From contig OZ025743.1 of the NCBI GenBank assembly GCA_964019335.1, positions 124,001 through 188,000 on the forward strand: a stretch of DNA of 64,000 nucleotides, in the 5' to 3' direction. The DNA is from Diplonema japonicum. Taxonomy: Eukaryota > Protista > Euglenozoa: Diplonemea. The notes under the pieces are model-generated. The model did no database searches and was not told the DNA's origin. It worked only from the letters and a program-made list of their open reading frames with translations. The position numbers and the translations under genes were made by a program. Position 1 is the first letter of the stretch. Every line of letters starts with the position of its first letter. Positions 7,261 through 48,974 of this stretch are shown here, piece after piece.

Positions 7261-7337
7261 GACTGGCACCTTCCGAAGAAGGGCCTCCCACGTCCGCCGG
7301 GTTGAGCAGAGGATGCCCCGGGGCGGCCGTTCCAGTC
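7261..7337 (-). ncRNA. Structured RNA motif B (pseudoknotted three-way junction), divergent copy
   Basis: GACUGG...CCAGUC outer stem, a long P2 capped by GGCA-UCCUC-UGCU, a junction GGGAGG complementary to the loop, and a CCUUC-UUCG-GAAGG hairpin. It covaries with the copy at 24489-24562. Confidence 0.7.
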
Positions 7338-7393: not shown

Positions 7394-7437
7394 GCCCTCG
7401 TAGCTCGCCGGGCCAGCACTCTTACTTGCGTAAGGTC
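7394..7437 (-). ncRNA. Structured RNA motif A (GNRA hairpin plus H-type pseudoknot), divergent copy
   Basis: GACCUUAC-GCAA-GUAAGAGUGCUGGCCCGGCGAGCUACGAGGGC aligns to 24806-24850 with a compensatory U-A/C-G change. Confidence 0.65.
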
Positions 7438-10135: not shown

Positions 10136-12619
10136 GAGCAGCTGTTCGGCTGTGCTTCGCAGGAGTTGCCTCTCCGTTCCCTCTGTCCTCCCGCCGCCCC
10201 TCCATGCTCCTGCGTTTCATCGCCTCACGCACGCGCGGCATACCTTGCGGCTGCATCCGTCAACCTGGCACCTAAGCTGGTACCGCTTCTTCGGCTGCTG
10301 CTTCTCGCAGCCGTCGCACCACCACCTCCCCTGCTTCTTCTCGCCCTCGTCGCGGTCTGGGTAGATGTGGGCGTGCCTGTCCGTGTCCCTCTCCCTCCGC
10401 CTTCGCTCGGTGTCCCTCGCTAGGCTCCGGCTCTTCGACTTCGACGACGCGCTCGACTTCGTCTTGGCCCTCGAGGTCGTCGTCTCCGCCGCGTATCCTG
10501 CCGTGGCCTGTTCCTCGGGCTCCACCGACATCCTCACCCCAGACGGGGATCTCATCCTCGGCTTCGGTGATGGTGATCGTGATGCCGATTGTGTGGGGGG
10601 TGTCGTCTCCCTTGTTGACTTCCCTCCAACCTTCCGTTTCTTCTCTGTTGGCTTCCCAGAGAGCTTCTCCAGCATTGCCTTCAGTTCTTGCACTTCCTTT
10701 CTGAGAGCTACCACCTCCTGTTCGAGCATCTCTTCTTTTTTCGTAGGGCCTTGCAGTTGCTGCTGCTCCTTCTGTTGTTGTTCCCGCGTGTGCTGCTTTC
10801 CTTGTTGCTGTTGTTTTTCTTGCTGCGGGTGCTGTTGCTCAGGTGCTACCTTCCCAGCTTCGACCCACGCCTTCTGCCCGTGTGTCTTCCCGTATAGCGC
10901 CAGGAACTGGCGCTTCGTGTACGTGCGCCCCGCGTACTCTTCCGGGTCTGCGGGGTCCGTCCTCTTCTCCTCCTCCTGCTTTCGCACTGCCTTCGGCGGC
11001 GGCTTCCCTGCCTCCCACACCTCCGCCGTTCCTCCCTGCCATTTTATCTCCCCGAAACTTGGGGGTGCCTCCGCCTGCAACACAGCCACTGTGCCCCCCT
11101 GCTTCGGGATGGTGCGGATGACCACCGCTTTCCACCCTGCTTCTTTGACAACCTCCTCGATGGTGGTTGTGTCCGCGCCCTTCGGGAGACCTCGGATGTC
11201 GTAGGTGGTCTTTCTGACAACCCCGAGGCCTTCCTTCAGGAGGTACTCCTGCACTTCCTCCCTTCTCTCGCTGACCTGCAGGCCCTATCCCTTGCCGTTC
11301 AGCGTCAGTGTCGCCGAGGGGGTGATCCGTGTCATCACTGCCCCAAGTACGTTTTGTGCCAGCCAGTGCTGCCTTGTGGACATCCACAAGGCCCCCCTTT
11401 CCCTCCTCTCGATCTTCCAGGGACCGTCCTCGTTCCCTAGCGCGGTCCCCTCCTGTTCCGGTGCCATCCAGATTAGGAAATCCATGACAGATTCCCCCTT
11501 CTTGCCTTCCCTCTCCATGTGTGGCCCTACGTGCACTCCCGTCAGGCCCGCCTTGCCGAGAAAAGCCATCACACTCTTTCTCGGGTCTTCCTTCGCCGCT
11601 TTCCATGCCTCGTCTCCTGCCGCCCACTCAGCCATGATGGCCCTGCAGGCGACCTCCTCCTTTGCGCCCTTCACCGGCGCCTTCTTCCTTTCCCCTCCTT
11701 TCCCGCTGGCCGCCTCCCTTGGCGCCACCAGCCGCTGCACCGTCACCGTCCCGCCACTCACCTTCTTCCCCACCCTCTCCGCCCAGTTTGGGCCCTGCCC
11801 GTCCCGGCGCGTCTGCACCGAGCTTTGCTCGGTCCCAGGGGCACCGCTTGGAGGTGCGCCGGGTTTGCTTGCTGATTGCTCTGATTGATGTTCGCTCATG
11901 TTAGTTCCGCCCCCTGAAAAAAAAAAAAAAAAAAAAAAGAGGGAGAACGTTAGCAAGGGAAGGAGGATAGTATATATTTCTTTTGAAGGCCATCCTCTTC
12001 CGCTCATTCATGCGATCTTTTTTTTCTTTGGGGAGAAAAAAAGAAAATGAAGAGAGGGGAGAGAGAGAGAACCGTTATCGATACGACAGTGTGCGGGGGT
12101 GTTCACTGTTCATGAAGAAGTCCACGCTGCGGGGGCTGTTTGTTGCAAGGAAATGACATGGCATAAGAGACGTACTAGGGTAGAAAAAGAAAATTATTTT
12201 TTGTGCAATACCTTCCCCTTCAAGAAAACAAAAGAGAGCGGGGTGGGGGCTGGCATATTCTCGCAAAATCAGCGCCATAGTCGCCTTCCCGCTCCTCACC
12301 CCGTCTTTCTAAAAAGATGGGGAGAAGCAGAAGGGGGAGCGAAGAAATTGAAGGGAAAAATAAAAGTTCATGCTATTCCTTTTTTTTTTCCTTCTCTTTT
12401 TTCCTGTTCTTTGAAACTTGAACGCAGATTGTAGTTGAAAGGAAGGGAGGGAAGGGTGTAAGATGAATTTCTTTGTTTTCCGGTCAGCACCTTGTAAGTA
12501 AGAGCATGAAGGGGTTACTGAGCGGGGGGGGGAAGAAGAAGAAGAAAAAGAAAACAAAGTAGTTTTTCTCTCACCATAAGGTCGTCGGTGGTGACCCCCT
12601 GTTTTGAAAGGTCTAACTG

Positions 12620-18435: not shown

Positions 18436-20793
18436 CTAACAAGTGCACTTAGAAGGAGGACAGGGACCGCCACACCCAAACTTCTTAGCTTTCTGGCACC
18501 ACGGGTCCGCCAGCTCACCAATCTTGCTGAAGATGACGAAGGATGTGGCCTCCTCGGTGGTCTCGGGAAGGACCAGAGAGGCCCCCGCATCCACCTGAAC
18601 CCTGTACGACACCATCTTCTGCTCTGCCAACCCCCACTTGGGAGCGCAGGAGGCCGACTCGAACCCAGCCAGAGGGAGCAGGGCGGGGAAGCCACCGTTC
18701 ACCTTCCCCGAGCACGGAGGGCAGTGGTAGTGCGACACGATGAACTCGCAGACCTCAGTCCCGCAGCATGTGAGGGTGATGGCGGTGTCCTTGGGAATGG
18801 CAGCAGGGGTGTGCACCTGCATCTCCCTCATGTTCTCGGGGATCATCGTCAGCACCGCCTCGCTGTTGCTGAACTCCATCTCCCCGTTCACATCGTTCCC
18901 CGGAACGGTGGCCCCCTCGATGCTCACCTTCACGCCCTCGTGGTTCCCGCAGGTCACATCGTCCACCTTCTCGTCCGCAAGGATCCTGTCCATCTCCACG
19001 CAGCCCGTCTTCTTCACGAACACACGCACCTTGCGGGGGGCCGTCCCACCACAGGTCTGCGAGATGGCTCCGCAGAAGTTGTGCGTCGCACAGGCAAGGC
19101 TCCCAGCAGGTCCAGTCACAACGGTGTCGGGGGTGTTGTCGCCCCACTTGAAGGTGTAGGTCAGCTGCTCCTGTGTCGTGGACTCCACGAGGGTGCAGAA
19201 GGTCTCAGGACCGGCCACAGTCGGGTAGGGGGCCACCCCAAGATCCACAGAGGTCACCACAGGGCGAAGGTACACAGGCTCGCTCATGTCCATGTCCTGC
19301 TGCAGGGACCCGTCGCCGAAGTGGAAGGACCAGGTGTCGATCCCCCTGATGAAGTTCGCTTGGATCTTGATCTCCCAGTTCAGGTTCGTGGGGAAGCCGT
19401 CAAGAGCACCACCGTCGGTGTTCTGGTGGAACCACCAATGCCCGCCGATGTTCCCGCCGTTGTGGGTGATGTCCCCGAGCTTGTTGCTGCTGGTCCAGTC
19501 CCACTCGGCCGTCCTGTCGTCGCTCTGCGCAATGGAGACACCTCCCGGGATCCCAGTGATGAGGGCGTCGACGTCGGACTCAGGCTGGTTCCCCTGGGGG
19601 CTGTCGATACCGTGGATCCAGAAGAAGGACAGGTGGTGGGGGTTCGTGAGGTCCCTGTACAGGAACATGTTCGAGGTCCCAGCCTTCTCAAACCCGGTGT
19701 GCGCGCTCCAAGAGTCGAAGTCGTAGAACTGCTTCGCTGTCATCGCCCTCTCCACAGCAGGGACAGTCCGGCGGTTCTTCCCGTTCTCCTGCTCCACCAC
19801 GAACTGCTTCACGTCCCCCACGAAGTTCAGCGGCGGGCAGGTGTCGATCTCCTCATCTGCAAGGATCTTGTGAACTGGGGTGCAACCGGACCCCTTCGCA
19901 AACACACGCACCTTGCGGGGGGCCGTCCCACCACAGGTAGCCGACACAGGACCGCAGAAGTCGTGCTCGGCACAGGCAAGGTTTCCTTCCGTCTTCGTCA
20001 CAACAGTGTCGGGGGTCTCGTCGCCCCAGCTGAAGGTGTAGGTCAGCTGCTCCCCATCGTTGTCCGACTTCACAAGGGTGCAGAAGGTCTCCTTCCCTGC
20101 CGTCTTGGGGTAGGGGGCAACACCAGTGTCCACAGTCGTCACCACAGGGCGAAGGTACACAGGCTCGGAGGGGTCCATTTCTTGTTCCGTGGACCCGTCG
20201 CCGAAGTGGAACTGCCAGCTGTTGATCCCGAAGCGGAACTTGGTCTCCACCTTCAGCTCCCAGTTCAGGTTCGTGGGAAGCCCTTCGATGGCACCACCGT
20301 CGGTGTTCTCCTTGAACCACCAGTCCCCACCAATGCTCCTGGTCCCAGAGGTGTGCTGCTGGTGGTTGATGTTGCCAAGCTTACCGGTGGTGGTCCAGTC
20401 AAACTCAGAAGACCTGTCGTCCATTTCAGCAATGGTGACCCCATCGGGGATGCCGCTGATGAGACCGTCGACTTCTGCTTCGGGCTGGTTGCCGTGGGGG
20501 TGGTCGATACCGTGGGTCCAGAAGAAGGACAGGTGGTCGGGGTGGTTCAGGTCCCTGTACAGGAACATGTTCGAGACCCCAGCCTTCTCAAACCCGGTGT
20601 GGCTGCTGTATGAGTTGAAGTCGTAGAACTCCTTCGCTGTCATCGCCCTCTCCACAGCAGGGACAGTCCGGCGGTTCTTCCCGTTCTCCTGCTCCACCAC
20701 GAACTGCTTCACGTTCCCCACGAAGTTGAGGGGGCATGTTTGAAGAGCAGTTGCCGTCCCGAGGGACAGCACGCACAAGAGCGCACCCGACAT
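18436..20793 (-). CDS. Secreted modular protein: signal peptide, two ~297-aa modules (NTDGG domain plus PKD-like WGD domain) and a Cys-rich C-terminal domain
   Basis: Start MSGALLCVLSLGTATA at 20793, a repeated module QFVVEQENG...NTDGG...YTFSWGDETPD, and C-terminal CPPCSGKVNGGFP...SCAPKW. Confidence 0.88.
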   Translation of the reverse strand: MSGALLCVLSLGTATALQTCPLNFVGNVKQFVVEQENGKNRRTVPAVERAMTAKEFYDFNSYSSHTGFEKAGVSNMFLYRDLNHPDHLSFFWTHGIDHPHGNQPEAEVDGLISGIPDGVTIAEMDDRSSEFDWTTTGKLGNINHQQHTSGTRSIGGDWWFKENTDGGAIEGLPTNLNWELKVETKFRFGINSWQFHFGDGSTEQEMDPSEPVYLRPVVTTVDTGVAPYPKTAGKETFCTLVKSDNDGEQLTYTFSWGDETPDTVVTKTEGNLACAEHDFCGPVSATCGGTAPRKVRVFAKGSGCTPVHKILADEEIDTCPPLNFVGDVKQFVVEQENGKNRRTVPAVERAMTAKQFYDFDSWSAHTGFEKAGTSNMFLYRDLTNPHHLSFFWIHGIDSPQGNQPESDVDALITGIPGGVSIAQSDDRTAEWDWTSSNKLGDITHNGGNIGGHWWFHQNTDGGALDGFPTNLNWEIKIQANFIRGIDTWSFHFGDGSLQQDMDMSEPVYLRPVVTSVDLGVAPYPTVAGPETFCTLVESTTQEQLTYTFKWGDNTPDTVVTGPAGSLACATHNFCGAISQTCGGTAPRKVRVFVKKTGCVEMDRILADEKVDDVTCGNHEGVKVSIEGATVPGNDVNGEMEFSNSEAVLTMIPENMREMQVHTPAAIPKDTAITLTCCGTEVCEFIVSHYHCPPCSGKVNGGFPALLPLAGFESASCAPKWGLAEQKMVSYRVQVDAGASLVLPETTEEATSFVIFSKIGELADPWCQKAKKFGCGGPCPPSKCTC

Positions 20794-20916
20794 TATATTT
20801 ATGTTTTTTTTTCTCTTTCTTTTTGTAAAAATACTAGAATCTGTGTTTTTTCCCCCCATTTTTTTTTTTTTTTGTGGCGAAGCGAGAATAAAAAAAAATA
20901 AAAAGGTCATCGGAGG

Positions 20917-21093
20917 AAACTGAAATGATATTGCAAGTGGGAATAAAATGTGAAAAAGTAAAAAAACAGGTGAAGAAGGAATAATACTGCATACGAAACA
21001 GAGACTTGAATTATAAAGTGATTGACATCCTCAAGAGGAGCCTCCCACGTACCAGGAATTAATCAGAGGTTGCTTCCATGGCCCGTATCAGTC
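20917..21093 (-). mobile_element. Short solo PLE-terminus insertion consisting of RNA motif B plus the 3' tail
   Basis: Similar to the pLTR 3' end (tgaaatg..., atactgcatacgaaa, motif B at 21020-21093). gtcatcggagg is repeated at 20906-20916 and 21091-21101. Confidence 0.65.
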
Positions 21094-21404
21094 ATCGGAG
21101 GTAAATTTCTCCAAATGTGTATAACTTACACAAGCTGGTGAAAGGGACATGCAAGAGACAACATGTGGGTTATCATCTTCGTTGTGTCCTTCCAACACAG
21201 GGCAGGGTCGCCGCCTAAGAGGAAAGGGGGTCTTGTGAGGAATCCTCGACCACAGACGAGAGGGCACCGTTGGAGGATCGCGAAAGGGAGCTGCAGAGCT
21301 CTGTAACGCCGAGGCTAGAACAAAATGGCGGCCCGTCTGCAGAAACAAGAGGAGATGGGAGAACAAACAGATGTGACAAAACCACACTAGCTCTTCACTG
21401 CCTT

Positions 21405-23972: not shown

Positions 23973-24379
23973 GTTGCCAATAAAGCACAGAATTGTTAAA
24001 AAAAAAGGGGGGGGGGCTTTTGGGTTGGGTTTGTAATGGATAATCAAGTCTGACAAAAAAAAAGAATATTTTAAAGGCCCCCCCGAATAATTCCATCCCA
24101 AAATAATAATGTGGTTTCCCCAAATACCGTAAAGCGAAAAAATCCCAGGAGAAAAATGCCGGAAGGGAAAAAAAGCCGGATATTTTTTTTCTCCAGCCGG
24201 CATTTTTCGGCTTGGGGGAAGGGGTGGGGGGGGACCCTGGAGTATTTCGCCAATCTTCCTTGGGACCTTTCTTGGGACAAAGCTCGCCTCCCATCTGAAC
24301 AACAGTGCCCACGTGCTGTCCCATGGAACCTTACAGCTTCCAGGACATAACTGATGAACCCATCCAAAAAGGTAGGTGC

Positions 24380-24787
24380 TGAAATGGTTTTAAGTTAGGA
24401 TGAAGAAGCGAAGAAATAGATAAAAAGGGGTGGGAAAGAATAAATACTGCATACGAAAACAGAGAGTCGAGTAAAAAAGGGAAAAGGTGACTGACATCCT
24501 CAAGAGGAGCCTCCCACGTACCAGGAATTAAGCAGAGGTTGCTTCCATGGCCCGTATCAGTCTATCGCCAGAAAGAATAATGAAAATAACATAACAAAGA
24601 GAAGGGGAGAAGAAACGGAAAAAGACGGCTTGGTCATCAGAGAATGTTGACCCAAATGCGTCGGCGGACGCAGTTTAACGTCATACCCGGGACGGAAACC
24701 ATGTTGGGAAAGCAGAAGGGAAGTTAAAAGTCAAGAAGTGGAAAAGGAAAAGGTGGAAACTAAAATCATAGGGTGCGAGGTCTGTGA
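24380..24787 (-). repeat. 3' pseudo-LTR of the PLE
   Basis: Near-identical 408-bp direct repeat of 32233-32640. Confidence 0.92.
24489..24562 (-). ncRNA. Structured RNA motif B in the pLTR (other copies at 32342-32415, 21020-21093, 33768-33841 and 7261-7337)
   Basis: GACUGAU-ACGGGCCAUGGA-AGCA-ACCUC-UGCU-UAA-UUCCUGGUACGU-GGGAGGC-UCCU-CUUG-AGGA-U-GUCAGUC. G-U pairs and a UUCG loop in the homolog indicate the minus (sense) strand. Confidence 0.7.
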
Positions 24788-24805
24788 GACCCTGCATAGC
24801 CTATC

Positions 24806-24850
24806 GCCCTCGTAGCACGCCGGGCCGGCACTCCTACATTGCGTAGGGTC
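24806..24850 (-). ncRNA. Structured RNA motif A immediately 3' of the PLE stop codon
   Basis: GACCCUAC-GCAAU-GUAGGAGUGCCGGCCCGGCGUGCUACGAGGGC, conserved with 7394-7437 while the flanks are not. Confidence 0.65.
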
Positions 24851-24864
24851 GTCTCCAGTAGTTC

Positions 24865-26097
24865 CTAGTTGTAGGAGTTCAGCACAGTCGACCACTGTGA
24901 CTCGCTGTAGTAGAGGGTCCCTGCCCCCACGAAGTCAGCGAGTAGGGCTGCCACAGTCGGATACGACTTGTCCTTGAACCCTTGGGTCTGCAACCGAAAG
25001 CCCTGTTCCTGGCGGGAAGCGTAGAGCCACGTCGAGTCATAACAGACCAGCAGACACGGGATCGCGACGCGTGTGTCGAGGGGGACCGTGACCATGGGGG
25101 TCTCACCCAGGAAGTGTGTGCAAGCCCTGGACATGCAGCTGAGGTCAAAGACGGCCTCGCCCTGGGAAAGGAAGCCCAGGTGTCGAAGCTCATCCAGGTC
25201 CTCAGGGCCGTCGACGTCTGCTTCCCTGGTGAGCCTCTTAAGGGCGACAAGTCCAGTGACTCTGGTGTTCGGCCTCGTCGCGGCGAGATCCCGTTTGGCC
25301 GCGGGAAGGGCGGGGCCGTCTTCGGGTTCCGGGCGTTTGTTCCTCTGCCCGTTGTAGGTGAGCAGGAGAGGGGTCCTCCCTGGAGTCCTAGTCTCGTCAC
25401 CTCTTGGGGCCTCGGAACCGAAGAGTGGGTGTTTCCAGCCGCCTTGGGCGAAGAACTCCGACCACCACTGTTGCTGTACCGCGGTGTTCAGCCCCGAGTG
25501 CCATTCGTGAGACAACCGAAGACGTTCGGTGGTAGGCAACGCCTTGTGCGCAATCAGAAGAAGCTGTTCCTGGTTGGCGACGGTTGCCTGTTGGTCGGCA
25601 GTTCTATCCGTGTCACGGGCCTCGAGCAGCAGTTGATGTGGAGAGGTGTCCAGGTGCATCGGGAGGGGACCGACCGACAGGAGCTGACGCTGGTGTTCGT
25701 CCAAGAGCTCCGGGTGTCGCCGGAAGTAGACCAAGAGACTGAGGTATCGATCCATCCGTCTCTGGAGGGCCCTTCGGTTGAGGGCTTCCTGATCAAAACC
25801 CTGTGACTGCTCGCGCAGGATGAGAAGATCCCCATCGCCTGTGGAGGAACTCTTACCACGACGGCTTTCGTGCTCGTAAGCAGTACCGTCGTGCTTCTTC
25901 TTGCGCGAGGGTCTGTCCGGGGAGTCCTGCGTGAGGTCGATCATTTCTAAACCACCATCCGCCTGGTGAGGGTCTAGGGGAGCGTCTGCCTCGGCTCGGG
26001 CCACGGGCGGCTCCAGGGTCAGCGTCGTGTCTCTCTGGGCGTTGACCACCGGTTGAAGCGTCGCGTGTCCCATGGCGGGAGCCATCGGCGTATCCAT
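24865..26097 (-). CDS. PLE polyprotein C-terminal segment (frameshifted) ending in a degenerate Josephin-like repeat
   Basis: It continues the upstream repeat (MGHATLQPVV) in a shifted frame. MSRACTHFLG...PCLLVC..STWLYA resembles LSRACLMVVG...PCLIVG...GHWFIA upstream. Confidence 0.7.
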   Translation of the reverse strand: MDTPMAPAMGHATLQPVVNAQRDTTLTLEPPVARAEADAPLDPHQADGGLEMIDLTQDSPDRPSRKKKHDGTAYEHESRRGKSSSTGDGDLLILREQSQGFDQEALNRRALQRRMDRYLSLLVYFRRHPELLDEHQRQLLSVGPLPMHLDTSPHQLLLEARDTDRTADQQATVANQEQLLLIAHKALPTTERLRLSHEWHSGLNTAVQQQWWSEFFAQGGWKHPLFGSEAPRGDETRTPGRTPLLLTYNGQRNKRPEPEDGPALPAAKRDLAATRPNTRVTGLVALKRLTREADVDGPEDLDELRHLGFLSQGEAVFDLSCMSRACTHFLGETPMVTVPLDTRVAIPCLLVCYDSTWLYASRQEQGFRLQTQGFKDKSYPTVAALLADFVGAGTLYYSESQWSTVLNSYN

Positions 26098-26113
26098 CCC
26101 GAGTCCGATGTTC

Positions 26114-29100
26114 TCATGGACGGACTGGATGCAAGGAGTGAGCTGTACCTGGCGGGCGCCGAGGGGCGTCTGCCAGAACGGGCGTTGTCACGGCTCGGGC
26201 GAGCGATGACTCCACAGCCGACGTTGTCACAATCTGGGAGCCGACCACTGGTTGGAGTGTCGCGTGTCCCATGGTAGACGACGGCATCGGTGTGTCACTC
26301 CCGTGTCCGGTGTCCCGACGGGTGGACTGAGTGCAGGCCGCGAGCTGGGTGGATGACACGTCCGTTGGCGGTGGAAGGCATGGTGTCAACCGAGGCTCAG
26401 TAACCAGCCGCTTCGACAGGGTCGCGCGGGGCGTCGGAATTTCGACAGACTTCGTAAGTCTGAGTCCGGCGTCCATCGGGGGCAGTCTACTGCTGGGAGG
26501 ATCCGTCTGGAGCGTCGATGATATCGAGAACAGTACAGGTGCTGTGACACGGTCCGTCTGACAGGTTGCGACTGCTGTCTGTGGTGTAGACTTGTGCAGA
26601 CTCGAGACCTTCAGGAAGAGCGGGACAGTTCCGACCACGTTAGTCTGGCTTGCCGTAGACGTGGTGGTGACAGAGCATCCGGTGTGCACGGCTCGCGCGG
26701 CCACGGCGGCAGCTAGGGCTATGATGGCGGTGGCGACGGGCCGCCCGAAGTGAGCGGTGTGCGCATCCACACCTGATGCGGCGACTCCTGTGTCGAGCCG
26801 TCGGGTGCGTGCGGCATATGTAGCTATAGCTGCAGCTAGGGTGACATAAGTTAGGAGGGTGCGATCTTCCGGGGTGTTGAGAGCGGTCTCAGTCTTTCGC
26901 GCGCTCGAGTCGCTTACCTGGGGTGCCGCCGGGGTGATGACCGGCTCAAACTGGCGAAACTCAGCCTCAGGGTCTAGAACACGTGTGTTGTGTTTCCTGC
27001 CTGGGGTTGTCCTGGCCCACACATCGTCTGGGATGCAGAGGATGTTGTGTTCGGAGTATGTCGCGCAGATGTGTTTGAAGCTCTGGAGCCTTAGCCGTAC
27101 GTCGGTGTCTTTGACCATGTACCTTCCCTTCTTCCTGAGAGCGATGAACCAGTGGCCGCTGAGACTTCGTTTCAAGGGACCAACGATCAAGCAGGGGCTT
27201 TCTTTCATGCCCGCACGGAAGACCTCCAAGTTTGCACCAACGACCATGAGGCAAGCACGTGACAAGGTCGAGCGGGAAAAGTTGCCAAGAGGATCGGGCG
27301 CTTCATCAGTGCTGGAAGGGGAGATGAGTCGTGAGAAGCCGTGGTACATCTCCTGGATCTCCTGCATTGTAGAGAAGGGGATGCGGTCCACACCAGCATA
27401 GTCCCAGCCGCATTCCAGGCCCAGGCGACCTTCCCCGCTGTTGGTGTGCAGGTTGATGGGGGGCGAAAAAACCTGGTCCGTGACACCAGATGGTGAGACC
27501 ACGGAGGCTGCTCGGGGTTGTGACGGTTCGACAAGACCTGAAGAGCTGTCCGAGGAACTGTCCGAGGGCTCGTCTGAGGGGCCCCCCGAGAAGGCGACTG
27601 AGGAGACGACTGAGGAGTCAGCTGAGGAGTCGTCCGAGGAGTCGTCCGTGGGAAGCGCACGGGGTTTCTTGGGGCCTATGTACGTTTTTTCCGGCAACCA
27701 AGAATCTACCGGGGCTTTGGCGTCGTATCGGTGGAGGACTTGCGTGAAGAAGGCCAGCAGGTTGCTTTTCTCCATGGCGAAGCGTCGATCCACGCGTTCG
27801 ATAAGGAAGGCGTTGTACGCTTTCCGCAGGCCGCCCTTGTCGTGACCGCGATCTAGGAGCAGGTAGATCACTGAAGCGATCTCCCGTTTGAGGTCCGCGA
27901 TGTTGTTGGTCAGGGCGCAGGCACGGATGACCATGCCCTTGAAGATGCCTGGTCCCTGGGTGGTGGGCGCCGCGGTGTGCCCGTGGGTGAACCGCGTAGG
28001 CCGGAAGCGCCAGTTCTGCGCCTTATCGTTAATGCTAAGTCTAATATAGTTGTGCTTAGCTTGTTCGTGGCGCTCTATCCGGATGCGAATCCCGATAAAG
28101 GGGACGTCGCATGGGTCTGAAGAGGTCTTTACATAAGCCATGCCATAAAGCTCCTCCGGGGGTGGCGCAGTGCTCCACAACAGGAAGTCGTCGATGTAGC
28201 GACACGCGTTGCAGTAGCGTTTCAAGGTCTCCCAGTCCTCTTCGGCGAGGAGCTTGTCGATGTATGCGGCCTCCACGGCGTAGCAGAACAGGTTCGCCAG
28301 GTCGGGGGAGGCGTTCCCACCCATGGGGATACCCTTTACTTGACGAACGGCGCGGCCACCCTGCACAACATAGGTGTTGTCAACGACGAGGTCCAGGAGC
28401 TTATGGACTTGGATCCGTTCCGGGGTGTAGACATCGTCCTCGTCGGCATCTGTGAAGGAGCTCCCGTCCTTGCCACGGGTGAGGTTCTTGCCGGTGAAGT
28501 CGAACGCTTCTTGGACTGCTTTACGAACCCCCTCTTTCAGACGCTCTTGGTCGAGGTTGGTGTACATGTCCCGGAAGTCGTACGTGGCAGGGGACAGGCT
28601 TTTGTAAGCCGTGTACTGCTGCTTGATATCCGCAGCTACGTTCTCGGCCGAGTCGACGATCCAGTACCGCTTTAGTCGGATACCGTCGGGACCGTGGGTC
28701 TTGGACCTGCCCTCCAGATCCTTGTCCAGCAGCGCGCGTTGGACAGCCTTCAGGAGGGAAGACAGTTCTAGATGGAGGGCCGTGGTGGCAGCTGTGGGTT
28801 TCTTAGCTTTATTGCCCGTTGTATCGCCGCCTGCTGCGACCAAGTTCTCCATAATTTCCTGCGTGCTGACCGCTGCTGGTTGGTCCACAGGGGGTGCATC
28901 AGTGGAGGAGACACCAGAGATCCACCTGACGCCCACTTTGTCTTTGTGTAGCTTCAGGGTACCGTACAGGTATGGCATGCGACGTGTGGAATCGAGGTTG
29001 AAGGTCTTGGCTTGATCAGCTATTTCGGAGAAGATCGAGTCCAAGGGCTTCGAGACCGGCTCGAAAGCTTGGCTATCAAGCTGTTGGTGCAGGATCCTGA

Positions 29101-29299
29101 GGTAGTGATCCTTGCAACAGACGCCAATGTCGTGGGTGCTTTTGTCTATGGGGAGGAAAACGTAGACCTCCTGAAGTTTCCGGAGCTTTGTCTTGATGAA
29201 CTCCGGGACTGAGGGGTCGAAGACCGGAGACTGAGTGTGGGGGTGGAGAAGGTTCTGTGCCTTGGCGAGGAGGACCTTCCGGAAGGAATCCTTTTTCAC
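26114..29299 (-). CDS. PLE reverse transcriptase, thumb, Josephin-like protease and low-complexity linker
   Basis: RT motifs as above. At ~27030-27450: LECGWD...DPLGNFSRSTLSRAC...CLIV...GHWFIALRKKGRYMVKDT. Confidence 0.9.
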   Translation of the reverse strand: MKKDSFRKVLLAKAQNLLHPHTQSPVFDPSVPEFIKTKLRKLQEVYVFLPIDKSTHDIGVCCKDHYLRILHQQLDSQAFEPVSKPLDSIFSEIADQAKTFNLDSTRRMPYLYGTLKLHKDKVGVRWISGVSSTDAPPVDQPAAVSTQEIMENLVAAGGDTTGNKAKKPTAATTALHLELSSLLKAVQRALLDKDLEGRSKTHGPDGIRLKRYWIVDSAENVAADIKQQYTAYKSLSPATYDFRDMYTNLDQERLKEGVRKAVQEAFDFTGKNLTRGKDGSSFTDADEDDVYTPERIQVHKLLDLVVDNTYVVQGGRAVRQVKGIPMGGNASPDLANLFCYAVEAAYIDKLLAEEDWETLKRYCNACRYIDDFLLWSTAPPPEELYGMAYVKTSSDPCDVPFIGIRIRIERHEQAKHNYIRLSINDKAQNWRFRPTRFTHGHTAAPTTQGPGIFKGMVIRACALTNNIADLKREIASVIYLLLDRGHDKGGLRKAYNAFLIERVDRRFAMEKSNLLAFFTQVLHRYDAKAPVDSWLPEKTYIGPKKPRALPTDDSSDDSSADSSVVSSVAFSGGPSDEPSDSSSDSSSGLVEPSQPRAASVVSPSGVTDQVFSPPINLHTNSGEGRLGLECGWDYAGVDRIPFSTMQEIQEMYHGFSRLISPSSTDEAPDPLGNFSRSTLSRACLMVVGANLEVFRAGMKESPCLIVGPLKRSLSGHWFIALRKKGRYMVKDTDVRLRLQSFKHICATYSEHNILCIPDDVWARTTPGRKHNTRVLDPEAEFRQFEPVITPAAPQVSDSSARKTETALNTPEDRTLLTYVTLAAAIATYAARTRRLDTGVAASGVDAHTAHFGRPVATAIIALAAAVAARAVHTGCSVTTTSTASQTNVVGTVPLFLKVSSLHKSTPQTAVATCQTDRVTAPVLFSISSTLQTDPPSSRLPPMDAGLRLTKSVEIPTPRATLSKRLVTEPRLTPCLPPPTDVSSTQLAACTQSTRRDTGHGSDTPMPSSTMGHATLQPVVGSQIVTTSAVESSLARAVTTPVLADAPRRPPGTAHSLHPVRP

Positions 29300-30561
29300 T
29301 GCAGGGGATCTCCGAAAGTCTGAGTGATGAACCCGTTGATGTCCTCCTCGAGACTTTGGGAAGAGAGGAGGGCGTGTGTTGAGAGGCGGAACTTCATGCC
29401 TCTGTTCAGAACCTCCTTCACTTCGTCGTCATCGATGACCTCTGCTGCTAGTCCGCAGGCGTGTCCCTCATGTGTGTGTGAGGTCTTGCGCTTCGAGCAA
29501 GGGCAGTTTGTTGTAGGCTCGGCCGCTTCTGGACGCGGGGTCTCGATGCTGAGCTTCGTCACATTGCACACTGTGGCCTTGAGGGTTTGACCAAGCTTGT
29601 TGCACATGTGTACTCTGCGAAGGAGGGCTGGCTTGGGGCATGCCGCAATTACCTCCTTGTCCTCGAAGACCTTACGCCAGAGGATCATCTCCTTGGCCTT
29701 GTGGTCAAAACTCGTTTTGAACCACACGAAGCCTTCGTCTCGGCGGACCACCTTTTTCAAGAGGGCAGGGCTGAGGCGGTTGGTGAGGCCTCGTTCGATA
29801 GCCGCGATCTTGGCGGTGAAGAAGTTCCCGACGAAGTAACGTCTCAGGAAGTTCAGGTACCTGAAGACGGTCTTGGGGGCCCAGGTAGTGAAGTCGTAGT
29901 TCAGCACATCGGGGTGTGCACACATCGCGGTGATCTTCATACACAGGGACTTGTAGTTGGACCCAGTAGCCTGGATCGACAGCTCCCCGTCGTCGTTCAG
30001 CCGTATCGAGGGAGCAGTAGATCTGGTGGGGGTGTTGTTGGGGTTCGAAGGGGACGTAGTAGTGTTGCTGCTGGGGTCCTGTTTGGCATTCGAGCGCCCC
30101 TGGTGTTGGTGTCGCTGCTGTTGCTGCTCGCGTACCGTCTTAGGTTTACGTCTCGTGTTGCGGCGGCGACGGGTCTGCGTCTTAGCAAACCTACCACGCA
30201 TGTTAAGGGAGCAAGCCAGCCTATTGATGTACTGGTTCTCCCTGGGGATCGCAACACGACGGAAGGACTTGGCGTCGTCGAAGAACTTGGGGTTGATCGA
30301 TTCGACGGGGAAAGCGAATAACGGGCCCCCGTTTTCCCTGAGGGCCTTGTGAAAGCGGGTGTCGTTGCTTTCAGCGTTCTCTCTGTGCGATCTGGCGCTG
30401 CTCCAGTGGCCCTGCATACGACGACGTAAGGTGTTAAACGTCTGCCCTGCGTACACAGGTTCACCGTGTTTGTCGACAGCGAGGTAGATGATACCTGCTG
30501 CGTCCTGTTCGGGGGCCTTTCCTTGGCGCATGTTCTTTACGATGCGGCTGTACTTGGCCAT
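29296..30561 (-). CDS. PLE GIY-YIG endonuclease and linker, frameshifted from the RT at a C-run near 29303
   Basis: AGIIYLAVDKHGEPVYAGQTFNTLRRRMQGH...FPVE...RENQYI...LN. Confidence 0.88.
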   Translation of the reverse strand: MAKYSRIVKNMRQGKAPEQDAAGIIYLAVDKHGEPVYAGQTFNTLRRRMQGHWSSARSHRENAESNDTRFHKALRENGGPLFAFPVESINPKFFDDAKSFRRVAIPRENQYINRLACSLNMRGRFAKTQTRRRRNTRRKPKTVREQQQQRHQHQGRSNAKQDPSSNTTTSPSNPNNTPTRSTAPSIRLNDDGELSIQATGSNYKSLCMKITAMCAHPDVLNYDFTTWAPKTVFRYLNFLRRYFVGNFFTAKIAAIERGLTNRLSPALLKKVVRRDEGFVWFKTSFDHKAKEMILWRKVFEDKEVIAACPKPALLRRVHMCNKLGQTLKATVCNVTKLSIETPRPEAAEPTTNCPCSKRKTSHTHEGHACGLAAEVIDDDEVKEVLNRGMKFRLSTHALLSSQSLEEDINGFITQTFGDPLQ

Positions 30562-30643
30562 GAACTTGGCGGCTGCGTCCTGGCTGAGAGACTCCCAGAG
30601 GGCCCAGTCAATGCTGCCGTTGTTTCGTTTGCAGCTGACCGGG

Positions 30644-31279
30644 CTAGGCGGAGATGTCCCGCGACTTCTTGACTTGGTCCTTTGCCATTGTGCTAAGGAA
30701 GAAGTCCTTGCGGATCTCGTACCTGTTTTGATCTTTGCCCCAGCGGTTATCGTAGGCAGCTTGGTATCCGTGACGATAGGCGGGCTGGGGGCCAGACCGG
30801 TGGTTCGGCCGGTGGGCCGGTTGAGGAGTAGTAGGCGTTTTCCGTAAGGTCTTGACGGGACGCGTCGGTGCTACACCTTCGGTGAAACAGGCACGGACTC
30901 CATGGTGGTGTAGGAGTGCCTGCGTGAAGAGTGCATAGGGAATATGTGTGTCCCTGGTGGCGATCTCCAGGTGGACTTTTAGCACGTTGCCGTTTTGTAC
31001 GACATCACGTACGAAGAGGGCCTTTCGGACACCCGCACCATAGGCGTCACAGATGGTGCGGATGACTTCCTCTCTGGAGGGCGACCTGTTGATTGCACGG
31101 TAGTTGAAGGGGTGGGAGTTATATATGCGCGACTGACTATACTTCTTATAAGTGTTTGTTTTATTCGTTGTTGACGGAAAGGTATTGATCTTTAGGGGTG
31201 CATTTCCTGCGGCACGCCGCACCTGTGATGCGCGCGTGTCATAACGAGTTGGAAAGCGGCCGTAGGCGGGTCTCTTCAT
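30644..31279 (-). CDS. Basic N-terminal segment of the PLE ORF (211 aa; probably joined to the GIY-YIG frame by a frameshift)
   Basis: ATG-initiated ORF inside the element. The GIY-YIG frame is open upstream across its stop codon. Confidence 0.55.
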   Translation of the reverse strand: MKRPAYGRFPTRYDTRASQVRRAAGNAPLKINTFPSTTNKTNTYKKYSQSRIYNSHPFNYRAINRSPSREEVIRTICDAYGAGVRKALFVRDVVQNGNVLKVHLEIATRDTHIPYALFTQALLHHHGVRACFTEGVAPTRPVKTLRKTPTTPQPAHRPNHRSGPQPAYRHGYQAAYDNRWGKDQNRYEIRKDFFLSTMAKDQVKKSRDISA

Positions 31280-32232
31280 CGCTATGAAAATGCTTGATGC
31301 TTTAGAAAAACGGAGGGTTTCTACAAAGGTGGATTGGTTACCTGACTCCTAGCAGCAGTTTTATTTAGGACAGCTTTTAGAATGACAGTCACAAGTTGGT
31401 CAAAGCACTAGACGGGTTAGAGGACCGGGGACAAGGAGGTCTAGACATGTCATAATGAGCTGATGGTGGGTATGAACTGCACCCGTTGCCGTAACGGGGT
31501 CCGACCGGAGTATTTCAACATGAGCCGAGTTGCCTACTGAGGGCTTTTTTTCCACCACTTTCCTGAGCGTGCAGGATGGTCCTGTGAGAGGGACGTAGCC
31601 TGTGCGGGCAGCAAAGCTAACGAAGGGTTCTCCTTGTCTAGGTAAGAACGGGGGGGAAAAGGAATAGTTGGGTGCATAGAATGGATATAGGGCACTATAT
31701 GTATGTGCAAATATACGTTCAGTCATATAGCGCGGCTCACCTCATCAAAAAAACGTGCATGCCTTGCCTGTATGTTCACCCGTGCAGTCAGGACTATCAC
31801 TGCACGGTCGAGAGCTCCCCAGGGCCAGTTTACGAAACCTATCATCGCCCAACTAACGCCGTGTCTCGCATGGACCCCCTCTTTGACGTACAAGGGGCTG
31901 AGCGGATTTCTCAGGATGTTGGATGTAGAGGTGGGGAGTCTCTAGTTGTGCGGTCAAAAGGCATTTTATCAAAAACGGGCTTTTTTCGGAAGAAAGCCCT
32001 CGAAAACTTCGGCTTTCAACGACGAACGGGAGGAGATCAGTTTCGTATTTGGGTCTACATAAATGCGACCCTGCAGAGTGACCTACGGTGAAGTAAGTCC
32101 CCATTGTTGGTCGCTGGGGTTGGTACAGCAAAGCTGTGAGAAGTCTTAAAAACTAATCTTAAGAGTTAAAAACCTGCAGAGCCTCTGGTTGCGTCTAAAC
32201 GGCGCCCACAAGGTAGTGCAGTTAGAGGCAAC

Positions 32233-32640
32233 TGAAATGGTTTTAAGTTAGGATGAAGAAGCGAAGAAATAGATAAAAAGGGGTGGGAAAGAATAAATAC
32301 TGCATACGAAAACAGAGAGTCGAGTAAAAAAAGGAAAAGGTGACTGACATCCTCAAGAGGAGCCTCCCACGTACCAGGAATTAAGCAGAGGTTGCTTCCA
32401 TGGCCCGTATCAGTCTATCGCCAGAAAGAATAATGAAAATAACATAACAAAGAGAAGGGGAGAAGAAACGGAAAAAGACGGCTTGGTCATCAGAGAATGT
32501 TGACCCAAATGCGTCGGCGGACGCAGTTTAACGTCATACCCGGGACGGAAACCATGTTGGGAAAGCAGAAGGGAAGTTAAAAGACAAGAAGTGGAAAAGG
32601 AAAAGGTGGAAACTAAAATCATAGGGTGCGAGGTCTGTGA
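32233..32640 (-). repeat. 5' pseudo-LTR of the PLE (partial tandem)
   Basis: Direct repeat of 24380-24787, abutting the TSD. Confidence 0.92.
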
Positions 32641-33073
32641 TCATCCAAAAAGGTAGGTGCCTTTCACTCACCGTTTTTTTATTTCTTCATTTTTTTTTTT
32701 TTTTTTAATTCCACCAGACCAGACCGACCCCACCCAGCTGGGCTGTGTGGAGCCAACGGAAGTGTGTTAAGACGTTCGTGCTTACGTGTCGGCCTGAGTT
32801 ATTGTTCTAGCACCTTTTATGACATGGGTATTCTCTTTCCACAGTTAGCTAATGGGTTTTTTTTTTTTTTTTTTTTGTTCCCCTCCTTTGGTTGCCAGTC
32901 CTCAGGATTTTTCTTTTTTTTTTTTTTTATATTGGCAGGCCGACCTAGTGCGACGTCCTTGGATGACACAGAGATAAATTCTGATCATCTAGCAGCCAGC
33001 CAGCCAACATCGCGGGTCCTCCGGCGTCTCACACGCGAACGCCACAGGATGACTACCGTAAGGACCACTCGAG

Positions 33074-33760: not shown

Positions 33761-36700
33761 TATAAGTGACTGACATCCTCAAGAGGAGCCTCCCACGTAC
33801 CAGGAATTAATCAGAGGTTGCTTCCATGGCCCGTATCAGTCATCGGAGGTAAATTTCTCCAAATGTGTATAACTTACACAAGCTGGTGAAAGGGACATGC
33901 AAGAGACAACATGTGGGTTATCATCTTCGTTGTGTCCTTCCAACACAGGGCAGGGTCGCCGCCTAAGAGGAAAGGGGGTCTTGTGAGGAATCCTCGACCA
34001 CAGACGAGAGGGCACCGCTGGAGGATTGCGAAAGGGAGCTGCAGAGCTCTGTAACGCCGAGGCTAGAACATGGCGGCCCGTCTGTAGAAACAAGAGGAGG
34101 TGGCTGAAACGATTGTAGAATAAAAGTGGGAGAACAAACAGAAGAGAAAATACCACACTAGCTCTTCACTGCCTTTCATCGCGGTTCTTCGTACTTCCTT
34201 TTCACGCCCCTCCTTTCGGGAGAAGTCTCCTTGCGCCTTGACAGAAGAAGTCCCCGAATGGACTCAACGTTGCCCCCCTCAGCCGCGTAGAACAGTGGGG
34301 TGAGTCCCTCCCCGTCCCTCACACATGGGTCTTGCTCGTAGGACTCCAGCAGCAGCTGCATCGCCTCAGTACATTTTGCAGCAGCAATGTGCAAAGGAGT
34401 AAGCCCCCGATTGTCCTTCACACAAGGGTCTTGCTTGTACTCATCGACGAGGACCTTCACCATCTCCAAGCCTCCCCTTGCTGCATAGTGCAAGGGTGTC
34501 TCGCCATTGTTGTTCCTCATGCTAGAGTCCACTCTGCATTCATCTAGGAGGTACCTCATCACTTCTATGCACCCCTCACTTGCTGCATCGTGGATGGCGG
34601 TGTTTCCAATGTCTGACACGGTGCAAGGGTCAACTTTGCACTCTTCGACAATGAACTTCACCACATCAACTTTGTTCTTCATTGCCGCCCTGTGCAGGGG
34701 TGTGGTGCCTCTCCCATCCTTCATCGCAGGGTCAACCTTGCAGACTTCAGTGAGATACCCTACCACCTGCAGCTGTCCCTTCTCTGCTGCAACGTCCATG
34801 GGTGTGAAGCCAGCTGTGGTCCTTGAGCCAGGGTTTTGCTTGTGAACTTCAACAAGGTGCTTCACTGCCTCCAGCTGACCATCTCTCGCTGCAAACATAA
34901 TCGGCGTGAATACCTTGTCCTCGACTGTCAGCTCCTGCTTGTAAACATTGATGAGACAGTCCATTGCCGCAAGCTTGCCTGCTTGTGCAGCGAAGTGTAG
35001 AGGTGTGGTGCCGTCCTTGTCCCTTGCCCCAGGGTCCACCTTGTACTCGTCGATGAGGAGCCTCATGGCCTCCACGTGACCATTAATTGCTGCCACATGA
35101 AGGAAGGAGGTTCCGTTTCCATCCACAAGGCTGGGGTCAAGCTTGCACTCTTCGATGAAATACCTCATCACATCAACATGGTTCGTCGCTACCGCCAAGA
35201 ACAAGCCTCTTCTGTTCTTCATCCCACCAAGGTCAACCTTGCAGACTTCAGTAAGATACTTGACCACATGCAAGTGATTGCAACACACAGCAAGGTCTAG
35301 AGGTGCCATGCCACTATTGTTTAGCAAACTGGGATCCAACTTAAACTTACTCACGAGCCACTCCAGTGATTGAAGCCTTCCCGCTTCCGCTGCGTGGTGG
35401 ACGAGAGTTGCACCGCAGGGTTCCACAAACGCAGGGTCTTGCTTGCACTCCTCAATGAGATACTTCATAGCCTCGAACTGGCCTCTTGTGAGAAGGACCG
35501 CAACAAGGCCATCAGCAGTCGGGGTCGCAGGGTCTATCTTGCACACCTCAATGAGGTACCTCAAGGCCTCCACGTGACCTCTCACTGCCGCCCTGTGAAT
35601 GTGAGCATAGCCCTCATCATCCTCACCGCTCGGGTCTTGCTTGCAAACTTCGACAAAATACCTCATCACATCAACTTGGTTCTTCATTGCCGCCCTGCGC
35701 AGGGGTGTGGTGCCTGTCCCATCCTTCATCCCAGGGTCAACCTTGCAGACTTCAGTGAGATACTTGACCACCTGCAGCTGTCCCTTCTCTGCTGCAACGT
35801 CCATTGGTGTGAAGCCGCCTGTGGTCCTTGAGCCAGGGTTTTGCTTGTGAACTTCAACAAGGTGCCTCACTGCCTCCAGCTGACCATCTTGTGCAGCACA
35901 CATAATCGGCGTGAATTCCCTGTCCTCGACCGTCAGCTCCTGCTTGTAAACATTGATGAGACAGTCCATTGCCGCAAGCTTGCCATTCTCCGCAGCGAGG
36001 TGGAGAGGTGTGGTGCCGTCCTTGTCCCTTGCCCCAGGGTCTACTTTGTACTCGTCGATGAGGAGCCTCATGGCCTCCACGTGACCACCCAGTGCCGCCC
36101 TGTGAATGTGAGCATAGCCCTCATCATCCTCACCGCTCGGGTCTTGCTTGCAAACTTCGACAAAATACCTCATCACATCAACTTGGTTCTTCATTGCCGC
36201 CCTGCGCAGGGGTGTGGTGCCTCTCCCATCCTTCATCCCAGGGTCAACCTTGCAGACTTCAGTGAGATACTTGACCACCTGCAGCTGTCCCTTCTCTGCT
36301 GCAACGTCCATTGGTGTGAAGCCGCCTGTGGTCCTTGAGCCAGGGTTTTGCTTGTGAACTTCAACAAGGTGCCTCACTGCCTCCAGCTGACCATCTTGTG
36401 CAGCACACATAATCGGCGTGAATTCCCTGTCCTCGACCGTCAGCTCCTGCTTGTAAACATTGATGAGACAGTCCATTGCCGCAAGCTTGCCATTCTCCGC
36501 AGCGAAGTGGAGAGGTGTGGTGCCGTCCTTGTCCCTTGCCCCAGGGTCTACCTTGTACTCGTCGATGAGGAGCCTCATGGCAGCGAGCTGACCGTGCCAT
36601 GCTGCAGTGTGCAAAGCTGTCTCACCACTCGGACCAGACACACTTCTGTGAACCCCGTACTTCTGAATGACTGCCTTCATGTGTTGGAGGTTGCCTGTCG

Positions 36701-37064: not shown

Positions 37065-37240
37065 TCACCAATTCTGTCCAGAAACCCTCGTATCTTCCAC
37101 AACACATCACCGTTTGACCCTTTTGTGTGAGTGAAGTGGAGGCTACTTTTAATTTCCTGGTAGCGTTTCCTGGGCATCGTGTTACTGAAAAGGGAGATTT
37201 TCATGGGTCCTGCACGCCGTAAACCCATCGCAACGCTCAA
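37065..37240 (-). pseudogene. piggyBac transposase fragment (truncated copy)
   Basis: MPRKRYQEIKSSLHF...LWKIRGFLDRI. Confidence 0.7.
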
Positions 37241-37997: not shown

Positions 37998-38572
37998 AAT
38001 AACTATTTATTGCCAACAAATAATGAGTCATTATTTAACTCGAGTTCCCGAATTTTTTGCACGAGGGCCCGCAGGGCCCGAGTGCAAAAAAACGGGTAAC
38101 GAGTGTTAAATAATGGCTCATTTGGCGGCAAGTAAGTCGTTTTATTTCACTTTTCGTCATTTGAGTCACTCACTCTTCGCTGCTTTCACTGCTGTTTTTT
38201 TTCACGCAGGTCAGCTTTTTGGGGATTTTCCTAAGGTAATACAGGGTAGCTATTTCGCCGTGGCATTTAAAGGGGAAGTAAGGCACTTATTCCCACTTTT
38301 AAGGGCTGGAATGGCCTCAGATGGCCAAAAATAGTCAAAATACCCCCACCCCAAAAAAAATTTTCAAGGGGTTGGGTGCATTTTTTTCCACGACAAGACC
38401 CATTTTTTCACTCTGAAGGGCCATTATTTAACTGCAAAATCTCATTATTTAACTAGTTAAATAATGGCGATTTCGCGTTAAATAATGGCCGTTTCGCGTT
38501 AAATAATGGCCATTTCGCGTTAAATAATGAGGCCCCTAGTGAGTGAAGAAAATGACGAAGAGTGAAATAAAA
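37998..38572. repeat. Inverted copy of the 16453-17010 repeat
   Basis: Reverse-complement similarity, with one extra 21-bp unit. Confidence 0.85.

Positions 38573-48938: not shown

Positions 48939-48974
<36 letters not shown>

What the first reader, a model, noticed from the sequence alone, without database searches (positions are those of the whole stretch)
24806..24850. Second conserved 3'-UTR motif (A): GNRA hairpin plus compact H-type pseudoknot just after the PLE stop codon
Seen: a 45-nt block is ~85-90% identical between 24806-24850 and 7394-7437, although the adjacent protein is only weakly similar. The hairpin is CCUAC-gcaau-GUAGG versus CUUAC-gcaa-GUAAG (compensatory). It is followed by UGCY/GGCG and GCCC/GGGC, which can form a classical pseudoknot. 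Both elements keep the order stop - motif A - spacer - motif B - terminus. Inference: a bipartite RNA signal for retrotransposition or translation control.
Basis: partly seen in the sequence, partly recalled or inferred. Interest (0 to 1): 0.8.

Follow-up and report, generated by a model that had tools for sequence, protein, structure and literature searches.

The report
Conserved knotted RNA in plankton retrotransposon
Two jumping-gene insertions in a marine protist share a nearly identical 45-letter stretch beside the end of otherwise very different proteins; it matches no catalogued RNA family, is predicted to fold into a hairpin plus a small knot, and likely helps the element's enzyme pick out its own RNA.

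Summary
The block is real: 40 of 45 nt identical (E 1e-8) between a full-length Chlamys-type Penelope-like element (PLE) of a Diplonema species and a 5'-truncated relative whose protein is only 27% alike. Assembly contigs show it on further flanks and more conserved than its neighbours. The hairpin has one compensatory pair. 'GNRA' is not conserved: the loops read GCAA, GCAAU and ACAAU. The pseudoknot can form in both copies but has no compensatory change and no folding signal. Motif A sits at the stop codon (14 nt after it, or likely overlapping it), at a variable distance from motif B, and is left out of the pseudo-LTR. No Rfam match; no true homologue in three public collections. Hammerhead, HDV, twister, SECIS and readthrough readings fail their tests. 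Best reading (0.4, untested): a cis signal through which the element's protein captures its own RNA, working like the R2 3'-UTR pseudoknot. A new ribozyme class is not excluded (about 0.13). Chlamys PLEs lack hammerheads and were not reported from diplonemids in the papers searched. The scan's notes held no earlier record of this motif.

The parts
24806..24850 (-). Motif A, element 1 copy (45 nt)
   Evidence: 40 of 45 identical to 7394-7437
24833..24847 (-). Hairpin P1 (5 bp, 5-nt loop)
   Evidence: one double-sided change C-G/U-A; pair probability 0.73 in element 1 and 0.98-1.0 in element 2 when folded in context
24806..24830 (-). Predicted H-type pseudoknot: S1 24830-27 with 24821-18, L1 1 nt, S2 24825-22 with 24809-06, L3 8 nt
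   Evidence: 8 of 8 pairs possible in both copies, 1 one-sided change, no double-sided change; not shown to form
7394..7437 (-). Motif A, element 2 copy (44 nt, GCAA tetraloop)
   Evidence: the same block on further flanks in contigs
24865..24867 (-). Stop codon of element 1's last frame, 14 nt before motif A
7422..7424 (-). Likely true stop codon of element 2, inside the 3' arm of P1
   Evidence: needs a frameshift near 7530-7570, inferred from weak tail homology
24489..24562 (-). Motif B in element 1 (multi-stem structure about 109 nt from the 3' end)
   Evidence: 8 double-sided changes against element 2's B
7261..7337 (-). Motif B in element 2 (about 88 nt from the 3' end)
24380..32641 (-). 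Element 1: full-length Chlamys-type PLE insertion between 19-bp target-site duplications (24361-24379, 32642-32660)
32232..32640 (-). Upstream pseudo-LTR, copy of 24379-24787; contains B, lacks A, begins 18 nt 3' of A
   Evidence: 407 of 409 identical
29296..30870 (-). Element 1 frame with N-terminal GIY-YIG endonuclease and CxC motif
   Evidence: PF01541 E 1.4e-4, 22.5 bits against cut-off 22.6; CxC aligned with relatives
26114..29428 (-). Element 1 frame with PLE-type reverse transcriptase
   Evidence: PF00078 E 1.3e-4, below cut-off; best named relatives from Diplonema papillatum at 38-39%
24865..26187 (-). Element 1 C-terminal frame; no Pfam family; ends in the domain shared with element 2
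   Evidence: a transcript-derived protein is 100% identical over 239 aa
7173..7784 (-). Element 2: 5'-truncated insert (C-terminal coding tail, A, B) between 15-bp duplications (7158-7172, 7785-7799), inside the RT gene of an APE-type non-LTR element; PLE identity inferred, no RT left

Best explanation
Motif A is a conserved 45-nt block at the end of the coding region of diplonemid Penelope-like elements, predicted to fold as a hairpin plus a small pseudoknot, and it likely serves as a binding site by which the element's own endonuclease-reverse transcriptase captures the RNA that encoded it. Shown: the block, its place at the stop codon, its conservation above the flanks, its absence from the pseudo-LTR. 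Inferred: after the ribosome leaves, A folds and the new protein binds it in cis; motif B, at a near-fixed distance from the 3' end, would then position the start of reverse transcription. Untested: folding of the pseudoknot and any binding.
For: Selection on the block: 40 of 45 nt kept where the protein is 27% identical and flanking 20-mers are at shuffle level (10-15 of 20 against 17-19 in A). An 87%-identical subfamily contig shows 1 listed change in 24812-24849, in the loop, of 25 differences over 191 nt (Fisher p 0.03; 19 of the 25 were displayed). A contig with another coding-side flank matches element 2 at 45 of 46 nt across A but about 19 of 25 in the adjoining spacer (read by eye). 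All 5 differences between the two window copies keep the 13 pairs and include a double change; simulated chance 0.5-1.0% (structure chosen after seeing the sequences). Precedent: A-clade R2 proteins bind a small 3'-UTR pseudoknot with base-specific contacts, needed for insertion (PMC11601368, PMC12222951, passages); the anole PLE protein needs an RNA region next to its ORF boundary and starts reverse transcription internally (PMC11167929, parts 1-2 of 4). The family is transcribed up to within about 30 nt of A.
Against: No binding or probing data. R2's pseudoknot lies within the last 65-67 nt of the RNA; A lies 221-426 nt from the 3' end, where B is the better-placed candidate. Near-invariance across families with diverged proteins fits an invariant partner (host factor, catalysis, DNA site) at least as well as a co-evolving RT. 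The pseudoknot has no compensatory change, 8 pairs survive 5 random changes 19-27% of the time, neither copy folds better than shuffles, and element 1's lowest-energy fold is a different long hairpin. Only 2 full copies could be aligned. No homologue was found outside this lineage.
Confidence: 0.4

Rival explanations
1. A is an mRNA-stability or turnover element read by host proteins, placed where the 3' UTR begins; it would protect a transcript with a long 3' UTR from decay.
For: A stays within about 15 nt of the stop while its distance to B and to the 3' end varies. Near-invariance across families fits an invariant host partner. Diplonema 3' UTRs are long and proposed to bind regulatory proteins (PMC10161547, passages). 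Naiad SECIS elements sit in the same place, 1-21 bp after or overlapping the stop (PMC8557442).
Against: No copy of A in any host gene 3' UTR of the window (covariance model, 2 hits at E<1e-16, next best E 0.76). No expression data.
Confidence: 0.2
2. A (alone or with B) is a self-cleaving or processing RNA of an undescribed class that replaces the hammerhead missing from Chlamys PLEs and would cut tandem transcripts near the pseudo-LTR start.
For: Chlamys elements lack canonical hammerheads (PMC8557442). Loop and linker bases are as conserved as the stems. The pseudo-LTR begins 18 nt 3' of A and one loose contig end lies 3 nt from that point (24784). A has twister's strand order by eye (GC, CCC, GC, GA-GGG; twister layout recalled, core elements listed in PMC11662667).
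Against: No Rfam ribozyme match even at E<=10. No hammerhead, pistol, twister-sister or hairpin core; only an HDV-L3-like 7-mer on the antisense strand without P1, P2 or J4/2. No P4 or shared P1 for a twister. The other loose ends shown are scattered from 24441 to 25137, so one near the junction is weak. B, not A, lies where other PLEs carry the hammerhead.
Confidence: 0.13
3. A acts as DNA: a recognition site for the element's GIY-YIG endonuclease, or a promoter element that would start transcription at the pseudo-LTR boundary.
For: The host sequence about 25 nt upstream of element 2's target duplication matches A's 3' end at 12 of 13 nt; only 2 such matches exist in 64 kb outside A. The anole PLE cuts at its own ORF-pLTR junction (PMC11167929). 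S2 and L3 never vary.
Against: Found after the fact, and in 1 of 3 true insertion flanks; element 1's flank and the 21-kb copy's flank lack it. The compensatory change in P1 points to RNA structure.
Confidence: 0.1
4. A is shared only because 3' modules were recently swapped between families by template switching or gene conversion, with no function.
For: PLE 3' ends here are mosaic: contigs branch at 24658-24659 to another 3' sequence in 4 of 4 runs, and the element-2 type of A has at least three coding-side flanks.
Against: A is more conserved than both flanks in three comparisons, which would need repeated swaps of the same 45 nt; the changes seen keep the pairs.
Confidence: 0.1
5. A is a readthrough or frameshift pseudoknot that would extend the element's protein.
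For: Size and geometry resemble small viral recoding pseudoknots (recalled, no call); it lies at the stop.
Against: Stop-to-S1 distance is 34 nt in element 1 and likely 3 nt in element 2; readthrough would add 36 or 26 unrelated codons in different frames relative to A; no slippery site seen by eye.
Confidence: 0.05

Closest known systems
A-clade R2 3'-UTR pseudoknot-hinge-stem (R2Tg, R2Pm; PMC11601368, PMC12222951)
   Same: Small pseudoknot with an adjacent helix in the 3' UTR of a target-primed retroelement; sequence-constrained
   Different: R2's element forms the last 65-67 nt and has the order pseudoknot then stem; A has hairpin then pseudoknot, sits at the stop codon 221-426 nt from the end, in a PLE; no sequence relation was tested or is claimed
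Hammerhead ribozymes of canonical PLE pseudo-LTRs (PMC8557442, PMC11167929)
   Same: Conserved small RNA near the 3' end of a PLE
   Different: No hammerhead core in either 3' region; A lies outside the pseudo-LTR
SECIS elements of selenoprotein Naiads (PMC8557442)
   Same: Same superclade of PLEs and same position, just after or overlapping the stop
   Different: A has no SECIS core spacing and the element's frames have no in-frame UGA to recode
Twister ribozyme (RF03160 and relatives; PMC11662667, PMC8501958)
   Same: Similar order of short GC, CCC and GA-GGG strands by eye; occurs in retrotransposons
   Different: No P4/L4 inversion, no shared P1, no Rfam hit; the conserved hairpin competes with the would-be P2
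Chlamys clade of N-terminal GIY-YIG PLEs (host element; PMC8557442)
   Same: N-terminal GIY-YIG without CCHH, CxC, DK motif, pseudo-LTR, 5' truncation, no hammerhead
   Different: Host is a diplonemid, not among the hosts named in that paper; clear 11-19-bp target duplications; two conserved 3' RNA motifs not described there

Membership tests
Chlamys PLE (element 1) | GIY-YIG endonuclease N-terminal to the RT | tested here: met
   PF01541 in 29296-30870 upstream of PF00078 in 26114-29428, both just under curated cut-offs
Chlamys PLE (element 1) | CxC linker and DK motif; no CCHH in the endonuclease | tested here: met
   CPC and DKS read from the translation and alignment; no CCHH by eye
Chlamys PLE (element 1) | Pseudo-LTR and 5'-truncated copies | tested here: met
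   32232-32640 copies 24379-24787; truncated copies at 20952-21097 and 33766-33845
Chlamys PLE (element 1) | RT falls inside the Naiad/Chlamys clade in a tree | not tested
   no reference Chlamys proteins were fetched; no tree built
Hammerhead ribozyme | CUGANGA and GAAA cores | tested here: not met
   pattern scan of both 3' regions, both strands; Rfam
HDV-like ribozyme | Nested double pseudoknot with L3, P1, P2 and J4/2 cytosine | tested here: not met
   only an L3-like 7-mer on the antisense strand; no P1 partner or J4/2 by eye; Rfam negative
Twister ribozyme | P1/L1, P2/L2, P4/L4 plus PK1 and PK2 | tested here: not met
   no P4, no P1 shared by both copies (helix list); L4 pattern absent; Rfam negative
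Any self-cleaving ribozyme | Site-specific self-cleavage | not testable with these tools
   needs an in vitro assay
Eukaryotic SECIS | RUGA...AA...GA kink-turn core and in-frame UGA | tested here: not met
   no such spacing starts within A; three loose matches lie elsewhere in the UTRs
GNRA tetraloop hairpin | GNRA loop kept in all copies | tested here: not met
   GCAA, GCAAU and ACAAU loops
H-type pseudoknot | Two interleaved stems supported by covariation or probing | tested here: inconclusive
   8 of 8 pairs possible in 2 of 2 copies; 0 double-sided changes
R2-like RT-binding 3'-UTR element | Bound by the element protein and needed for target-primed reverse transcription | not testable with these tools
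   needs binding and TPRT assays

The most novel reading that the evidence does not exclude
Motif A, alone or with motif B, is a new class of small pseudoknotted self-cleaving or processing RNA that replaces the hammerhead in Chlamys-type Penelope-like elements and sets where the pseudo-LTR begins.
Probability: 0.13. Interest if true: 0.88.

Novelty: new variant of a known kind. Interest (0 to 1): 0.52.

Why it matters
PLE reverse transcriptases are the closest relatives of telomerase, and how Naiad/Chlamys elements select their RNA without a hammerhead is open (PMC8557442). A 45-nt motif kept almost unchanged across diverged families gives a small, cheap substrate to test binding, cleavage and priming. 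It also points to Chlamys-type PLEs in diplonemids, which the papers searched do not report. If the motif cleaves itself it would be a new ribozyme class.

Tried and rejected
No whole genome is held, so the genome-wide A/B co-occurrence count could not be made. Rfam: 0 hits at gathering score in the window; only chance-level hits at E<=10 around both copies. Pattern scans: viral contigs 0, 0 and 1 chance hit for A and 0 for B; metagenome contigs 31 hits to a 20-mer, 0 of 31 extending into S1 or the hairpin, GC-rich (58-75%) and reading like coding DNA by eye; GTDB genomes 0. RT-profile scans: viral 0 of 52 candidates; GTDB 6 of 12 candidates, 21-25% identical RT loci, none with A; these are too distant and partly too short to count as a test within the family. 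C-terminal domain searches found only one near-identical transcript product and no Atlas hit at 0.9. No long-range A-B helix is shared by both elements. Summed contig depth rises over A but is no copy number and was not used. No RNA holder is on record; runs guessed to be RNA hold A but were not counted as expression. Runs X15 and X16 gave 0 laid contigs, no proof of absence. Run labels 'organism A-D' were not treated as separate species. Two GGCCCGGCG matches in the Chlamys supplement lie in a different hairpin context by eye and were rejected as homologues. In one search three pairs of motif B were entered one column off and score as unpaired; one search has them right. Scan notes: nothing by sequence, place or words bore on this. 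Supplements of bioRxiv preprints were not visible; none is relied on.

Full report
Observation. The two stretches align at 40 of 45 columns (blastn E 1.2e-8; alignment). A 21-nt core occurs twice in the window against 0.00 expected. Both lie on the sense (minus) strand of their elements. The five differences are a C-G to U-A double change in the hairpin, one loop indel, a C-G to U-G change in S1 and one change in L3; all 13 proposed pairs are standard in both copies. In simulation, five random changes keep all 13 pairs and include a double change in 0.5-1.0% of trials, but keep the 8 pseudoknot pairs alone in 19-27% (the structure was chosen after seeing the sequences). So the hairpin has some support and the pseudoknot is only compatible. 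Neither copy folds better than shuffles (z -0.26, -0.19); that program cannot form pseudoknots. In context P1 has pair probabilities 0.73 and about 0.99, S1 0-0.36 and S2 0.16-0.29.

Host and elements. RT and host-gene searches give Diplonema papillatum as the best named relatives (38-39% and 57-60%). A transcript-derived protein named to Diplonema japonicum is 100% identical to element 1's last frame over 239 aa, and that species has A-rich intron ends like this window (PMC12621601, passages). The host is therefore likely D. japonicum or a close relative. Element 1 (24380-32641) has an N-terminal GIY-YIG, a CxC linker, an RT, a 409-bp upstream pseudo-LTR (407 of 409 identical) and a 19-bp target duplication. 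These are the features of Chlamys PLEs (PMC8557442, section 9 read whole); no tree was built. Its coding region is split into three frames; related unnamed proteins reach 1279-1350 aa in one piece. Element 2 (7173-7784) is a 5'-truncated insert with a 15-bp duplication inside the RT gene of an APE-type non-LTR element. It has no RT left; its kinship rests on a 27%-identical C-terminal domain (E 2e-6) and on motifs A and B.

Anatomy. In element 1, A starts 14 nt after the stop, and the pseudo-LTR starts 18 nt after A, so A is not in the pseudo-LTR. In element 2 the frame that likely continues the homologous tail ends inside the hairpin (tail alignment weak, E 0.18). A is about 243 and 56 nt from B; B is about 109 and 88 nt from the 3' end (read). 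A thus tracks the stop codon and B the terminus. The window holds 5 B copies and 2 A copies; the three B-only copies are the pseudo-LTR and two truncated copies duplicated with an ankyrin gene. B shows 8 double-sided changes between the elements. No A-B helix is shared.

Further copies. With no genome held, I laid public contigs. An 87%-identical subfamily contig (X1 record 4) has 25 differences over 191 nt, of which 19 were displayed; one falls in 24812-24849 and changes the first loop base, breaking GNRA (Fisher p 0.03, indicative only). For element 2's copy, 2 of 4 runs gave contigs: besides its own flank there are at least two unrelated coding-side flanks that join at 7433-7436, and one 240-nt contig matches A at 45 of 46 nt while its spacer matches about 19 of 25 by eye. 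In a third comparison, 20-mers of element 2 match element 1 at 17-19 of 20 in A and 10-15 elsewhere outside B, against 13-15 as the best from shuffles. Together these favour selection over a neutral recent swap. Outside this lineage nothing was found: viral contigs, metagenomes (31 of 31 hits chance), GTDB, six distant RT loci.

Mechanism. Recoding is unlikely because the stop-to-pseudoknot spacing differs (34 nt against likely 3 nt) and no frame is conserved beyond. Known ribozyme and SECIS cores are absent. The closest working model is the A-clade R2 3'-UTR pseudoknot, bound base-specifically and needed for insertion (PMC11601368 and PMC12222951, passages), together with the finding that the anole PLE protein needs an RNA region near its ORF boundary, primes internally and does not need hammerhead cleavage in vitro (PMC11167929, parts 1-2 of 4). 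I therefore commit, at 0.4, to a cis signal for capture of the RNA by the element's own protein. Against it: A is far from the 3' end, B is better placed, and near-invariance across families also fits a host partner (0.2), catalysis (0.13) or a DNA site (0.1). The DNA reading has one post hoc lead, a 12-of-13 match about 25 nt upstream of element 2's insertion site, absent at two other true flanks. A neutral swap (0.1) and recoding (0.05) remain.

Comparison and novelty. A is not a member of the hammerhead, HDV, twister or SECIS families by the features tested; twister core elements were taken from PMC11662667 (passages), with PMC8501958 and PMC10085705 seen as passages and the base-by-base layout recalled. 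I found no description of the motif in print: searches, and supplement searches of PMC8557442 and PMC10161547. PMC8557442 does not mention euglenozoans, diplonemids or Discoba; the D. papillatum genome paper does not mention Penelope; PMC12278014 and bioRxiv 10.64898/2026.07.22.740005 (passages) add nothing on it. The library lacks most subscription papers and Repbase was not searched.

Verdict. A real, selectively conserved, undescribed motif at the coding-UTR boundary of diplonemid Chlamys-type PLEs. The hairpin has modest support, the GNRA claim fails, the pseudoknot and the function are unproven. New variant of a known kind (structured 3' cis element of a retroelement); interest 0.52.

Noticed in passing
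window 24489-24562 and 7261-7337 (also 32340-32420, 33766-33845, about 21020-21097): Motif B has 8 double-sided changes between the two elements and contains a 3-bp stem whose 5-nt loop can pair with an invariant downstream GAGG, the same small geometry as A's predicted pseudoknot; no Rfam match. It sits where other PLEs carry the hammerhead and is the stronger structured-RNA candidate.
   Followed up: partly
window 20906-21101 and 33766-33845: Two 5'-truncated copies begin right at the 5' edge of motif B; the first has an 11-bp target duplication. They lie downstream of duplicated ankyrin genes and likely stem from one insertion.
   Followed up: partly
window 24380-24400 and 32233-32253: Element 1's 3' end reads like a splice acceptor (branch-point-like CUAAC, then CAG at the terminus); in a tandem it could serve spliced-leader trans-splicing or the pLTR intron known from other PLEs.
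   Followed up: no
window 7824-7836: The host sequence about 25 nt upstream of element 2's target duplication matches A's 3' end at 12 of 13 nt; an ankyrin paralogue's empty site near 37080-37090 has an 8-nt match at a similar distance.
   Followed up: partly
window 4689-12007: A non-LTR retroelement with OTU-like protease, APE endonuclease and RT frames, interrupted by element 2 inside the RT.
   Followed up: partly
window 26900-27500 (minus): Element 1 carries, after the RT, a segment that looks by eye like a papain- or Josephin-type protease; related diplonemid PLE proteins carry UCH or OTU domains there. No Pfam hit for this segment.
   Followed up: no
window 24658-24659: Contigs in 4 of 4 runs branch here into a different 3' sequence, so the 3' UTR of this family is mosaic.
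   Followed up: no
window 7360-7385: A small hairpin in element 2's A-B spacer appears kept, with one compensatory change by eye, in the third family's contig.
   Followed up: partly
window 37065-38500 and 46535-47970; arrays at 18436-21030 and 39678-58272: Large tandem duplication (100% identical over 1436 bp) and an array of repeat-domain secreted-type proteins; may include an assembly artefact.
   Followed up: no
window 1874-4684: A gene with an ADP-ribosyltransferase-like region followed by ankyrin repeats, judged by eye from the translation.
   Followed up: no
L033-L038: Six AT-rich contigs in bacterial MAGs encode PLE-like RTs (21-25% identical), likely eukaryotic contamination of those bins.
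   Followed up: partly
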